From an uncultured virus (IMG/VR IMGVR_UViG_3300006467_000431) (Duplodnaviria > Heunggongvirae > Uroviricota > Caudoviricetes), in the IMG/VR virus record IMGVR_UViG_3300006467_000431: a DNA stretch of 64,000 nucleotides, one strand, 5' to 3'. The notes beneath the pieces are model-generated. The model ran no database searches. It was not told the DNA's origin and saw nothing but the letters and a program-made list of their open reading frames with translations. The position numbers and the translations under genes are program-made. Positions within the stretch are counted from its first letter, which is position 1, and every line of letters starts with the position of its first letter. Of this stretch, positions 5,701 to 7,468 are shown piece after piece.

Positions 5701-7468
5701 GATCAGCGGCTCCTTTCCTCCACCGGTAGTGCGCCGGTGGAGAGCGCTGAAGCACTCGGACCCGCGGGCACCCCCTGAAGGACCCCTCCTACACCGGCGA
5801 AGTGCTGGTGGATAGCGTTGAAGCGGTCGCACCTGGTTGATGACCATAACGATGATGCCGGTCCTCCACTGGCGGCATGCTGGTGGAGAGCGTTGGAGTG
5901 TGAACACGATGTCGGCACTACAGACGGTACAGAGCTTCCACTTGCGATGTGCCGATGGAGAGCGTTGAAGCAAGTGAGACAGGGAAGCCCGAAGGAGACT
6001 ACGGCGCTGCGACTCCACTTGTGATGTGCTGGTGGAGAGCGTTGAAGGCGCTCGCTGATGTTTCCAGCACACACATCCTCCTCCACTGGCGGCGTGCTGG
6101 TGGAGAGCTTTGAAGCGGGGCATCATCTGCGGTGATCCGCGCCGCCGGAGACACCTCTACTGGTGACGTGCTGATGGAGAGCGTTGTAGTGGCGTTGGCT
6201 GGCCAGTGGCACTGGTCGCCGGCCTCCTCTACTGGCGGTACGCTGGTGGAGAGCGTTGAAGCGCCCCTGCTGCCTGGGACTGCACCGACAAGACCGCGCG
6301 ATATCCATTGGCTGTGTGCCGGTGGAGAGCGTTGAAGTGGCGGCCACTGGAACCAGACCGTGAGCCGCAAGGCTGTCCTCCACTGGCCGTGTGCTGGTGG
6401 AGAGCGTTCAAGGAAGCAACGGACGGATGGACGGACAGTCGGACCCCCAAGTCCCCGATTGCCCTTTCTTTCATCGGTGGCGTGCTGGCTTAGAGCGTTG
6501 AAGCGCGTCGAGGACGGCCTGGATGCGGATATCGTGGTCATATTCCATTGGCCGTGTGCTGATGGAGAGCGTTGAAGGGGTCTACGGCACTGGCTCGCAC
6601 GGATCATGGAAGGGAACCCATCCATCAGCGACGTGCTGGTGGAGAGCGTTGAAGTGCTCCGAGCCGTCCTGTAGCTTGACGAGTGAGCAGATCCACTGGC
6701 AATGCCTTGGTGGATTGGTGGAGAGGGCTGAAGGCAGGGAGCGTTGAAATCAGGTATCGCGGCCCGGAATGCGATAGATAGCGTTGAAGTATAGTATTTT
6801 GAAGTCTTGCTGTTGCAGCAGACCGGTCCAGCGTGAGAGCGTTGAAGGAACTGAGAGCACGGCGCCAACCTTGGATCCGTCCTTGTTGAGCGTCGAGCGT
6901 TGGAGCGGCCCTATTCGCTGACTTGTCAGTGATCGTTGAAGAGGCCACACCGTGCATGTTCCGTAGGACATGGCCAGGGCTCGAGCTCGGGTTATACTTC
7001 CGCCGATCCACCGAGCCGCTGGCTTCGTTGTGTCGGTGGGGTTGCTGTTCAGCCAGAGCCAAGGCAGCAGCATGATCGGGGATGTCTCCATGGGCAGCAC
7101 GCTCGACAGACCCCGCGCATACCGAGGGATTGCTCGAGAATGTTGACTCTCGAGCGTCCATTCGGCATGGTTGAGAGCGTTGAAGGATGATCGACACACC
7201 TGTCGAGAGCCATATGCGTGGTGTGGAGCGTTGAAAGGACCAAAGCAGCAGGGCCAAGCGATCGACCTCTGTGTCGATTGCGCGTTGGAGCTGCCAGGAG
7301 GTTGGCCAGGTGCGTCTGCACCCCAGAATGCCCGATAGAGAGCGTTGAAGGAGAGCAGGTAGACGGTGAGCGAGTCAGAAGTTACTTTGGCTCGACACGT
7401 TGTCGAGAGCGTTGAAGTCAGAAACACTTCGATCAGCAGGATCTTTCTGACATCAAGTGCGTTGAAGG
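2761..7468 (+). CRISPR. CRISPR array, 37-nt repeat CCTCCATCAGCGATGTGTTGGTGGAGAGCGTTGAAGC; ~29 near-consensus repeats (2761-4853), ~26 divergent repeats (to ~6735), ~10 handle-only remnants (to 7468)
   Basis: ~73-nt period with unique ~33-40 nt spacers proximally; 10-bp stem CTCCATCAGC/GTTGGTGGAG followed by the 11-nt tail AGCGTTGAAGC; counts are manual and approximate. Confidence 0.97.

What the first reader, a model, noticed from the sequence alone, without database searches (positions are those of the whole stretch)
6690..7468. Handle-only CRISPR units with sequence-unrelated hairpins in the correct register
Seen: beyond the last recognisable repeat, the 11-nt handle recurs about ten times at irregular spacing. 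Several copies are directly preceded by a different hairpin ending exactly at the handle: CGCTGAC/GTCAGTG + ATCGTTGAAGA (6916-6942), CCATAT/GTGTGG + AGCGTTGAAAG (7210-7237), CGATCGAC/GTCGATTG + CGCGTTGGAGC (7259-7291), CTCGACA/TGTCGAG + AGCGTTGAAGT (7391-7418). Others have no clear stem. Inference: cryptic crRNA-like units defined by structure and likely invisible to CRISPR finders; possibly regulatory guides or Cascade-titrating RNAs.
Basis: partly seen in the sequence, partly recalled or inferred. Interest (0 to 1): 0.72.

Follow-up and report, generated by a model that had tools for sequence, protein, structure and literature searches.

The report
Eroded old end of CRISPR array
This is the worn, oldest end of a CRISPR array on a phage-like DNA element, where the short tag that the processing enzyme reads by sequence has outlasted the neighbouring hairpins; it illustrates known biology well and is probably not a new kind of RNA.

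Summary
After a type I-C array (2762-6655, + strand, 54 units) the 10-nt core of the 11-nt handle, AGCGTTGAAG, recurs 12 times up to 7468 at spacings of 16-244 nt. The four hairpins sit exactly where stated, and there is a fifth at 7149-7175. Stems of at least 6 bp ending at the handle occur in 5 of 12 units, against about 3% of background positions and 1 of 2000 shuffles. An energy-based test shows no enrichment, and 4 of the 5 stems need G-U pairs. The hairpins are not truly unrelated: they keep weak likeness to variant repeats of the array. The zone is a patchwork of duplications, deletions and truncated repeats. Divergence rises along the array far faster in the hairpin (4, 31, 67%) than in the stem base (0, 3, 28%) or handle (1.8, 4.1, 7.5%). 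The slow-changing parts are those that Cas5c is reported to read by sequence. The locus has no adaptation genes and lies on a phage-like contig. Other Cas1-less viral I-C arrays show similar tails. No targets were found for the pseudo-spacers. No RNA data and no close relatives were available. Verdict: eroded trailer, perhaps with a few units that are still cut; a regulator or decoy role is unsupported.

The parts
2..1657 (+). cas8c (Csd1), 5' end outside the window
   Evidence: Pfam Cas_Csd1 E 4e-22. The full gene is at L044:3445-5334, E 4.5e-27.
1696..2553 (+). cas7 (Csd2)
   Evidence: Pfam Cas_Cas7 E 8e-51; NCBIfam cas_CT1132 and cas_Csd2.
2762..6655 (+). Type I-C CRISPR array of 54 units. 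The 36-nt repeat is a 25-nt hairpin plus the 11-nt handle AGCGTTGAAGC. Repeats are uniform to about 4853 and increasingly variant after that. Four truncated units have handles at 4407, 4898, 4941 and 5367.
6691..6734 (+). Last recognisable repeat, with an 8-nt internal duplication (TTGGTGGA twice) and a 2-mismatch handle.
   Evidence: covariance model 20.9 bits.
6740..6750 (+). Handle copy 16 nt after the previous one, a local tandem duplication with no stem.
6766..6790 (+). Handle at 6780 with 14 upstream bases that are paralogous to 7322-7351. The stem TATCGC/GCGATA ends 3 nt before the handle, so it is out of register.
6838..6848 (+). Handle with GAG before it and no stem in register.
6896..6906 (+). 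Handle variant AGCGTTGGAGC, preceded by a partial duplicate GAGCGTCG. No stem in register.
6916..6942 (+). 6-bp stem (7 bp counting a T-A pair that uses the first handle base) plus handle ATCGTTGAAGA. The 3' arm TGTCAGTG is identical to that of the repeats at 5491-5526 and 5562-5597.
   Evidence: The stem is kept in the MFE and centroid folds.
7008..7039 (+). Canonical-type hairpin that is not followed by a handle. The next bases, 7042-7058, are paralogous to 6808-6824.
7149..7186 (+). Truncated canonical repeat: an imperfect hairpin closed by CTCGAG...TTGAG (with G-U pairs) plus a perfect handle.
   Evidence: family D15; 18.4 bits.
7191..7210 (+). Copy of the hairpin at 7392-7407 plus AGC; the rest of its handle is missing.
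   Evidence: 17 identical bases, and 5 of 2000 shuffles score as high.
7210..7237 (+). 6-bp stem CCATAT/GTGTGG (two G-U pairs) plus handle AGCGTTGAAAG.
   Evidence: (family D15).
7259..7291 (+). 8-bp stem CGATCGAC/GTCGATTG plus handle variant CGCGTTGGAGC.
7322..7351 (+). Handle at 7341 with upstream bases paralogous to 6766-6790. No stem in register.
7391..7418 (+). 7-bp Watson-Crick stem CTCGACA/TGTCGAG plus a perfect handle. It keeps the CTC...GAG closing pairs of the canonical repeat, and a 39-nt spacer-length stretch lies before it.
   Evidence: Covariance model 22.7 bits against 12.1 bits for the sequence-only model. An alternative pairing competes with it in the MFE fold.
7458..7468 (+). 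Last handle copy (TGCGTTGAAGG), no stem in register.
7505..7532 (+). Weak terminator-like site after the last handle.
   Evidence: The consensus scan found 4 sites against 3.0 expected, so this is weak.

Best explanation
The zone 6656-7468 is the eroded, rearranged oldest end of the type I-C array that starts at 2762. The array sits on a phage-like element whose cas operon (helicase, cas5c, cas8c, cas7) has no adaptation genes. Old repeats there are probably seldom renewed and drift. The drift is uneven. The handle and the GAG at the stem base are the parts that Cas5c, and later Cascade, read by sequence, and they change slowly. The rest of the hairpin only has to pair, so it changes fast, mostly through G-U-compatible and compensatory changes plus deletions of the hairpin top. 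Small duplications and deletions have then shortened and shuffled the units. Five of the twelve handles still have a stem in register. These could still be cut by Cas5c, but only 7341-7418 looks like a full-length guide unit. The other seven are debris.

Shown: the anatomy, the gradient of divergence, the internal paralogies, the absence of cas1 and cas4, and the parallels in other viral arrays. Inferred: that selection for Cas5c processing shaped the pattern, and that some units are still cut.
For: Context. The operon is an SF2 helicase, cas5c, cas8c and cas7, followed 208 nt later by the array. None of the 139 ORFs of at least 140 aa beyond 8000 matches Cas1 or Cas4.

Divergence gradient. 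Divergence from the consensus in the proximal, middle and distal zones is 4.1, 30.8 and 67.0% for the hairpin, 0, 3.0 and 27.8% for the stem-base GAG, and 1.8, 4.1 and 7.5% for the handle.

Pairing. In the middle zone 218 of 242 stem cells pair on the + strand RNA, against 170 of 242 on the - strand. Of the 104 cells that differ from the consensus pair, 80 still pair. Over the 50 full repeats, 93% of cells pair and 13 cells carry changes on both sides (9 of 500 shuffles reach this).

Erosion. There is an internal duplication in 6691-6734. Handle tandem duplications lie at 5673/5681 and 6724/6740. Paralogous pairs are 6766-6790 with 7322-7351, 7191-7210 with 7392-7410, and 6808-6824 with 7042-7058. 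A hairpin without a handle lies at 7008-7039. Truncated units occur even inside the array.

Stems in register. 5 of 12, with 1 of 2000 shuffles reaching this. Four of the five need G-U pairs, which points to RNA-level pairing and away from a DNA palindrome.

Literature. Cas5c recognises the stem base and the 3' overhang and tolerates changes in the loop (passages in PMC5965381 and PMC8524198).

Parallels. In IMG/VR type I-C loci, L061 (reverse strand, 16173 and 16227) and L063 (12258 and 12316) end in units with the same handle, other hairpins and short periods of 51-58 nt. L089 has 33 units with mixed hairpins. Cas1 is found in 0 of 4 records with such arrays and in 5 of 6 records with uniform arrays (Fisher P 0.024).
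Against: The energy-based test shows no excess of structure at the handle. With Watson-Crick pairs only, 1 of 12 stems remains.

Handles were found by their likeness to the handle, so their 7.5% divergence is biased low.

Seven handles are well kept without any stem. Selection for cleavage alone does not explain this.

No diverged relative of this array could be fetched. The only other contigs are identical apart from 1 base each, so selection in place cannot be told apart from inheritance of older repeat versions.

The Cas1 comparison rests on 10 records, most of them fragments (12-100% complete), and I classed the arrays by eye.

A fixed-alignment pair count on L089 gave no covariation signal: 72.5% of cells paired, no better than shuffles.
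Confidence: 0.68

Rival explanations
1. Pure relic with no selection at any stage in place. Under this view the hairpins are lost preferentially because palindromes are prone to deletion during replication. The handles look conserved because only handle-like strings were counted. The stems in register are leftovers of the original hairpin after deletion of its top, or chance. Nothing distal is processed.
For: Several periods fit a spacer plus handle with the 25-nt hairpin removed: 50 and 51 nt against a canonical 71-77 nt. Truncated repeats inside the array (handles at 4407 and 5367) keep only the outer stem. The energy test is null. There are many local duplications and deletions. One hairpin has survived without its handle (7008-7039).
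Against: Twelve handles at up to 2 mismatches lie in 813 nt. By my own arithmetic for equal base frequencies, about 0.3 are expected by chance. Only one hairpin-without-handle was found, so the asymmetry is real. Three stems (6916, 7210, 7259) differ from the canonical outer stem yet pair over 6-8 bp, 3 of 9 against a 3.2% background (P 0.0025). Pairing relies on G-U, which DNA-level palindrome mechanisms do not produce. Terminal units in L061 and L063 have perfect 7-8 bp stems of different sequence.
Confidence: 0.17
2. Dedicated crRNA-like RNAs. Under this view the short-spacer units (for example 7176-7237 and 7227-7291, with 21-23 nt between handle and stem) load the element's Cascade for silencing without cleavage. 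Alternatively, the handle-only units soak up Cas5 or Cascade of a related host system. Known parallels are regulatory mini-arrays and RNA anti-CRISPRs.
For: Known regulatory mini-arrays keep the repeat bases next to the spacer and keep the stem-loops as structures while stem identity varies, and their spacers are shorter than normal (passages in PMC10120712). A type I-C RNA anti-CRISPR exists (PMC10651486). Short-period terminal units with other hairpins recur in L061 and L063. The helicase in the cas3 position shows no HD nuclease domain, so the effector may only bind its target.
Against: No target was found above chance. The longest exact matches are 10-14 nt, the same as for shuffled sequences. 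The best PAM-flanked seed match is 12 of 15 positions, against a null maximum of 11 in 40 shuffles and with 13 spacers tried. Nothing was found within the zone itself or in L061 and L063. The supposed 23-nt spacer of 7187-7209 is largely a remnant of another repeat's hairpin. The units are contiguous with the array, have no promoter of their own above chance, and the element carries its own cas genes, unlike solitary repeat units. Host genome targets could not be searched.
Confidence: 0.12

Closest known systems
Degenerate terminal (trailer-end) repeats of CRISPR arrays
   Same: They lie at the leader-distal end, on the same strand and in the same register as the array, and degenerate progressively. 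The review passages I read note that polymorphic terminal repeats are common (PMC8047081).
   Different: Here the degenerate part is about 800 nt with 12 units, where usually it is a single repeat. [quoted passage not shown] Here the 3' end (the handle) is the best-kept part and the hairpin is the part that changes.
Regulatory mini-arrays and crRNA-like RNAs (CreA, the mini-arrays of Shmakov et al.)
   Same: Degenerate repeats keep the bases next to the spacer and keep a stem of varying sequence. Some spacers are short (PMC10120712).
   Different: No target was found. The units are not standalone in a cas intergenic region. Many have no stem, and some of the supposed spacers are repeat debris.
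RNA anti-CRISPRs (Racr) and solitary repeat units of viruses, including RacrIC1
   Same: Repeat-derived RNA elements on a mobile element that could bind Cas proteins (PMC10651486).
   Different: Racrs are solitary, close copies of host repeats, have their own promoter and lie away from cas genes. These units are degenerate, contiguous with an array and next to the element's own cas genes.
CRISPR-Cas systems of large phages that lack the adaptation module
   Same: The context is phage-like, with an effector module plus array and no cas1, cas2 or cas4 beside it. The review passage states that such systems occur in jumbo phages (PMC11656645).
   Different: The phage nature of this contig rests on a few PHROG matches. 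No terminase, portal or capsid was identified.

Membership tests
Type I-C CRISPR array (trailer end) | Adjacent cas5c, cas8c and cas7 genes | tested here: met
   Pfam and NCBIfam matches. Cas5 matches solved type I-C Cas5 chains at E 1e-22.
Type I-C CRISPR array (trailer end) | Repeat made of a hairpin plus an 11-nt single-stranded 3' tail that becomes the 5' handle | tested here: met
   25-nt hairpin followed by AGCGTTGAAGC. 93% of stem cells pair across the 50 full repeats.
Type I-C CRISPR array (trailer end) | Canonical Cas3 with an HD nuclease domain | tested here: not met
   The helicase at L044:675-2909 has ResIII and DEAD domains only. cas3_core scores E 0.055, and there is no HD domain and no PDB match.
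Type I-C CRISPR array (trailer end) | Distal units contiguous with the array, on the same strand, and derived from its repeats | tested here: met
Type I-C CRISPR array (trailer end) | Units transcribed and cut by Cas5c at the stem base | not testable with these tools
Regulatory mini-array / crRNA-like RNA | Spacer with partial, seed-anchored, PAM-flanked match to a promoter (usually of cas genes or a toxin) | tested here: not met
   Nothing above chance in the 67.7 kb of contig or within the zone. The host genome is not available.
Regulatory mini-array / crRNA-like RNA | Conservation of the unit and its spacer seed across related loci | not testable with these tools
   Only identical copies were found (L044, L049). 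The nearest Cas7 relative (82% identity) sits on a contig I could not fetch.
RNA anti-CRISPR (Racr) / solitary repeat unit | Solitary repeat copy with its own promoter, away from cas genes, close to the host repeat | tested here: not met
   The units are contiguous with an array and cas genes and are degenerate. No promoter excess was found: 2 sites against 1.3 expected.

The most novel reading that the evidence does not exclude
On mobile elements that carry a type I-C effector without adaptation genes (and here perhaps without a nuclease), the array tail would be a maintained set of short-spacer, alternative-hairpin crRNA-like units. In this reading Cas5c needs only the handle, the stem base and any stem, and the units are loaded into Cascade to silence host or rival genes, or to compete for a related host Cascade. 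The recurrence of short-period terminal units with new hairpins in L061 and L063 would then be a shared design and not shared decay.
Probability: 0.1. Interest if true: 0.7.

Novelty: new member of a known kind. Interest (0 to 1): 0.3.

Why it matters
If the reading holds, this tail works as a natural mutagenesis series for a Cas5c enzyme. It shows which parts of the repeat tolerate change (the loop and the inner stem, as long as something pairs) and which do not (the GAG at the stem base and the first ten handle bases). It also gives a concrete picture of how arrays age on elements that cannot renew their repeats. This matters for array finders, which will cut such arrays short, and for dating spacers. 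It does not open a new mechanism.

Tried and rejected
Relatives.
- A Cas7 protein scan and an 18-nt repeat pattern in genome contigs found nothing useful: 0 relatives, and 38 single chance hits.
- A two-handle pattern in metagenome contigs found only the same contig (L042, L044, L048), one identical 3.3-kb contig (L049), and unrelated tandem or coding repeats.
- The same pattern and Cas7 in viral contigs found nothing.
- GenBank phages gave only Cas7 matches at about 30% identity.
- No whole genome is held for this window.

RNA evidence.

Targets.
- Exact matches, PAM-plus-seed matches on the contig, local CreTA-like matches and the same search in L061 and L063 were all at chance level.
- The array against GenBank phages gave one chance-level hit, E 0.4.

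Rfam.
- No family matched the region.

Covariance model.
- The model built from the canonical repeats gains clearly from structure only at 7391-7418 and 6691-6734. The other distal hits rest on the handle alone.

Pair counts on L089.
- No signal, probably because indels misalign the stems.

Other readings considered and dropped.
- A minus-strand ORF over the zone (6750-7427, 6625-7257): no family match, and the handle spacing is not in codon steps.

Earlier notes of this scan.
- No notes exist for this window, and no look-alike stretches were found.
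Full report
WHAT IS THERE

The window opens inside a type I-C cas operon. A second copy of the same contig (L044) is identical apart from 1 base over 14,337 compared, and it adds 3,677 bases upstream. In order, the operon holds:
- an SF2 helicase (L044:675-2909; ResIII, DEAD and Helicase_C domains);
- cas5c (L044:2789-3577; Pfam Cas_Cas5d E 1e-14, NCBIfam cas_Cas5d E 3e-25);
- cas8c/Csd1 (window 2-1657);
- cas7/Csd2 (window 1696-2553).

The Cas5 matches solved type I-C Cas5 chains at about E 1e-22. 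I did not check its catalytic residues.

The array starts 208 nt after cas7. It has 54 units on the + strand, with handle starts from 2787 to 6645. The 36-nt repeat is a 25-nt hairpin (CTCCATCAGCGATGTGTTGGTGGAG) followed by the 11-nt tail AGCGTTGAAGC, and the period is mostly 71-77 nt. This anatomy matches what passages of two papers describe for type I-C. [quoted passage not shown] It recognises the stem base and the 3' overhang, and it tolerates changes in the loop (PMC5965381; PMC8524198).

CHECK OF THE OBSERVATION

The handle recurs as described. GCGTTGAAG with up to 1 mismatch occurs 94 times in the window, against 14.0 +/- 3.4 in shuffles. Of these, 65 lie on the + strand between 2788 and 7467, and 11 of those are at 6741-7467. 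The other 29 are spread over both strands and none is exact. With the 10-mer AGCGTTGAAG at up to 2 mismatches there are 12 copies from 6724 to 7458, spaced 16 to 244 nt.

A fifth lies at 7149-7175.

Whether this exceeds chance depends on the test:
- Strict test, for. Perfect stems of at least 6 bp (G-U allowed, loop 3-10) ending at -1 occur in 5 of 12 units. The rate over every non-array position of the window on both strands is 3.2% (P 2e-5). The count peaks at offset -1 among 27 offsets tried. Only 1 of 2000 shuffles of the upstream 34 nt reaches 5.
- Watson-Crick only, weaker. Just 1 of 12 units qualifies, and 46 of 2000 shuffles reach this.
- Energy test, against. With an enforced closing pair and spans up to 34 nt there is no enrichment at any threshold and no peak at -1. 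In this 62% G+C DNA, about a third of all positions can close something of -5 kcal/mol.
- Whole-zone fold, against. The two halves of the zone fold no better than shuffles (z -0.30 and +0.09). Four of the five stems do appear in the MFE or centroid folds, and the fifth, at 7391, competes with another pairing.

I read this as a real but modest signal for simple stems in register. The criteria were partly chosen after seeing the data.

THE HAIRPINS ARE NOT UNRELATED, AND THE ZONE IS A PATCHWORK

- The unit at 6691-6734 is a plain canonical repeat with an 8-nt internal duplication.
- The unit at 7149-7186 is a truncated canonical repeat.
- The stem at 7391-7407 keeps the CTC...GAG closing pairs of the canonical repeat, with a C-G to G-C swap next to them. 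The covariance model built from the 50 full repeats scores it at 22.7 bits, against 12.1 for a sequence-only model.
- The 3' arm of the 6916 stem (TGTCAGTG) is identical to that of the repeats at 5491-5526 and 5562-5597.

Tested one by one against 31 distinct canonical hairpins with pair-preserving shuffles, the five stems give P values of 0.11, 0.05, 0.06, 0.32 and 0.09. Combined, P is 0.010. The likeness is therefore weak, but it is present.

The zone also carries internal paralogies:
- 6766-6790 with 7322-7351;
- 7191-7210 with 7392-7410, a hairpin plus AGC whose handle is otherwise gone (5 of 2000 shuffles score as high);
- 6808-6824 with 7042-7058.

Handles are duplicated in tandem at 6724/6740 and, inside the array, at 5673/5681. 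A canonical-type hairpin at 7008-7039 has no handle after it. Truncated units also occur within the array body, with handles at 4407, 4898, 4941 and 5367. So several 'spacers' of the distal units are in fact repeat debris. Only the stretch 7341-7418 has the proportions of a full guide unit: handle, 39 nt, stem, handle.

THE GRADIENT

Divergence from the consensus was measured in three zones: proximal (28 repeats), middle (22 repeats) and distal (12 units).

| Part of repeat | Proximal | Middle | Distal |
|---|---|---|---|
| First 22 hairpin bases | 4.1% | 30.8% | 67.0% |
| GAG at the stem base | 0% | 3.0% | 27.8% |
| First 10 handle bases | 1.8% | 4.1% | 7.5% |

The eleventh handle base is C in 96, 59 and 17% of units. 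The distal handle figure is biased low, because those units were found by their handle.

In the middle zone the stems stay paired although their sequence changes. 218 of 242 cells pair on the + strand RNA, against 170 of 242 on the - strand. Of 104 cells that differ from the consensus pair, 80 still pair. By my own reasoning about which single changes keep a pair, roughly a third to under a half would be expected without selection.

Over all 50 full repeats, 93% of cells pair. Most change runs through G-U intermediates. Thirteen cells carry changes on both sides, and 9 of 500 shuffles reach that. The parts that change slowly are the parts Cas5c is reported to read by sequence.

CONTEXT

None of the 139 ORFs of at least 140 aa beyond position 8000 matches Cas1 or Cas4. 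Cas2 is too short to have been covered by that scan.

Most ORFs have no family. Those that do have a phage flavour:
- a virion structural protein (phrog_1383, E 1e-35);
- phrog_2087 (E 1e-63), whose structural neighbours are mostly from tailed phages;
- three DNA methyltransferases;
- a dCTP deaminase;
- a tRNA.

I did not find a terminase, portal or capsid, so 'phage-like' is a judgement. A review passage states that large phages carry CRISPR systems lacking the adaptation module, the nuclease, or both (PMC11656645).

PARALLELS ELSEWHERE

An alignment of Cas7 relatives pulled 38 IMG/VR loci at 25-39% identity. A simple k-mer chain finder saw arrays in 29 of the 38.

I examined 20 of these after dropping identical twins and three-copy or atypical chains. 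Eight of the 20 held at least one unit with a good handle but an upstream 21 nt less than 60% identical, ungapped, to the modal hairpin. That gave 26 units in all, of which 9 had a stem of at least 6 bp in register (background 3.4%). Twelve of the 26 are only indel-shifted canonical hairpins. Of the 14 truly divergent units, 6 have such a stem.

The clearest cases are at array ends:
- L061 (reverse strand): units at 16173 and 16227, periods 51 and 54 nt, perfect 7- and 8-bp stems of new sequence.
- L063: units at 12258 and 12316, periods 54 and 58 nt.
- L089: 33 units with mixed hairpins and irregular spacing behind an almost invariant handle. A fixed-alignment pair count on it gave no covariation signal.

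Cas1 was found in 0 of 4 records with such arrays (L061, L063, L076, L089) and in 5 of 6 records with uniform arrays (L054, L058, L079, L082, L083 yes; L087 no). One-sided Fisher P is 0.024. The sample is small, most records are fragments, and I classed the arrays by eye.

HOW IT MOST LIKELY WORKS

On an element that cannot make new repeats, old units age in place, or are inherited as older versions of the repeat. I cannot tell these two apart without diverged relatives. What survives is what the processing and loading proteins read by sequence. The stem only needs to pair, so it wanders, and hairpin tops get deleted. Slippage duplicates and removes pieces. Some old units probably remain substrates of Cas5c. 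Most of the distal ones probably do not.

Two facts do not fit selection for cleavage alone, and I leave them open. First, seven handles are well kept without a stem. Second, six consecutive repeats at 3212-3616 share two changes and are flanked on both sides by the other variant. That second pattern points to recombination or gene conversion between arrays.

RIVALS

A purely neutral relic (about 0.17) is favoured by the null energy test and by the many deletions. It is disfavoured by the handle-to-hairpin asymmetry, by the G-U-dependent pairing and by the new perfect stems in L061 and L063.

A dedicated regulatory or decoy role (about 0.12) resembles known mini-arrays, whose repeats keep the bases next to the spacer while stem identity varies (PMC10120712). 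It also resembles RNA anti-CRISPRs, which include a type I-C example (PMC10651486). However, I found no targets above chance and no promoter excess, and the units are not solitary. For the preprint 10.1101/2024.10.29.618823 I saw only the listing and the start of its abstract.

NOVELTY

Degenerate trailer ends are well known (PMC8047081). Earlier notes of this scan on other genomes describe similar aged phage arrays. I treat those notes as leads only.

The particular feature here is a long tail in which the handle outlasts the hairpin, on an adaptation-less type I-C element. I did not find this described in four full-text searches. Four searches are thin grounds for saying it is not in print.

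I rate it a new member of a known kind, interest 0.3.

Noticed in passing
L044:675-2909 (upstream of the window, same contig): The gene in the cas3 position is a generic SF2 ResIII/DEAD helicase. No HD nuclease domain is detectable, NCBIfam cas3_core scores only E 0.055, and there is no PDB sequence match. The effector may lack a nuclease.
   Followed up: partly
window 3212-3616: Six consecutive repeats share two changes (T6C and T13C) and are flanked on both sides by the other variant. This block pattern suggests recombination or gene conversion between arrays, not simple chronological growth.
   Followed up: no
window 6409: The only difference from the twin contig L044 over 14.3 kb lies inside a handle: GCGTTCAAG here, GCGTTGAAG in L044.
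   Followed up: no
window 8000-64000: The context is phage-like and mostly unknown. It includes a virion structural protein (40758-41396), phrog_2087 (39694-40761), three DNA methyltransferases (21228-22271, 44058-45005, 51936-53831), a dCTP deaminase (18162-19121), a HAD_SAK_2 protein (17671-18306) and a tRNA at 8190-8267 on the - strand. No terminase, portal or capsid was identified.
   Followed up: partly
L061 (reverse strand) 16122-16240; L063 12204-12330: Two other viral type I-C arrays end in two units each. These keep the handle, have short periods (51-58 nt) and have hairpins of different sequence, three of the four with a 7-8 bp stem in register.
   Followed up: partly
L089 11300-14600 (and its near-twin L088): A 33-unit type I-C array on large viral contigs has mixed hairpin sequences and spacings of 19-321 nt, while the handle GGATAGAAAC is almost invariant. 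No Cas1 was found in the record.
   Followed up: partly
L075 4746-4907 and L077 4754-4919: Two large viral contigs are 95% identical. Each carries a three-repeat type I-C mini-array with near-identical repeats and flanks, but the spacers between them are unrelated.
   Followed up: no
window 7676-8085, - strand: A small gene (7777-8085) has a weak PTH2-like match (Pfam E 1e-4, just under the cut-off) and matches phrog_1866 (E 1e-11). By my reading of the sequence, a hairpin plus T-run follows it on the - strand near 7690-7730.
   Followed up: no
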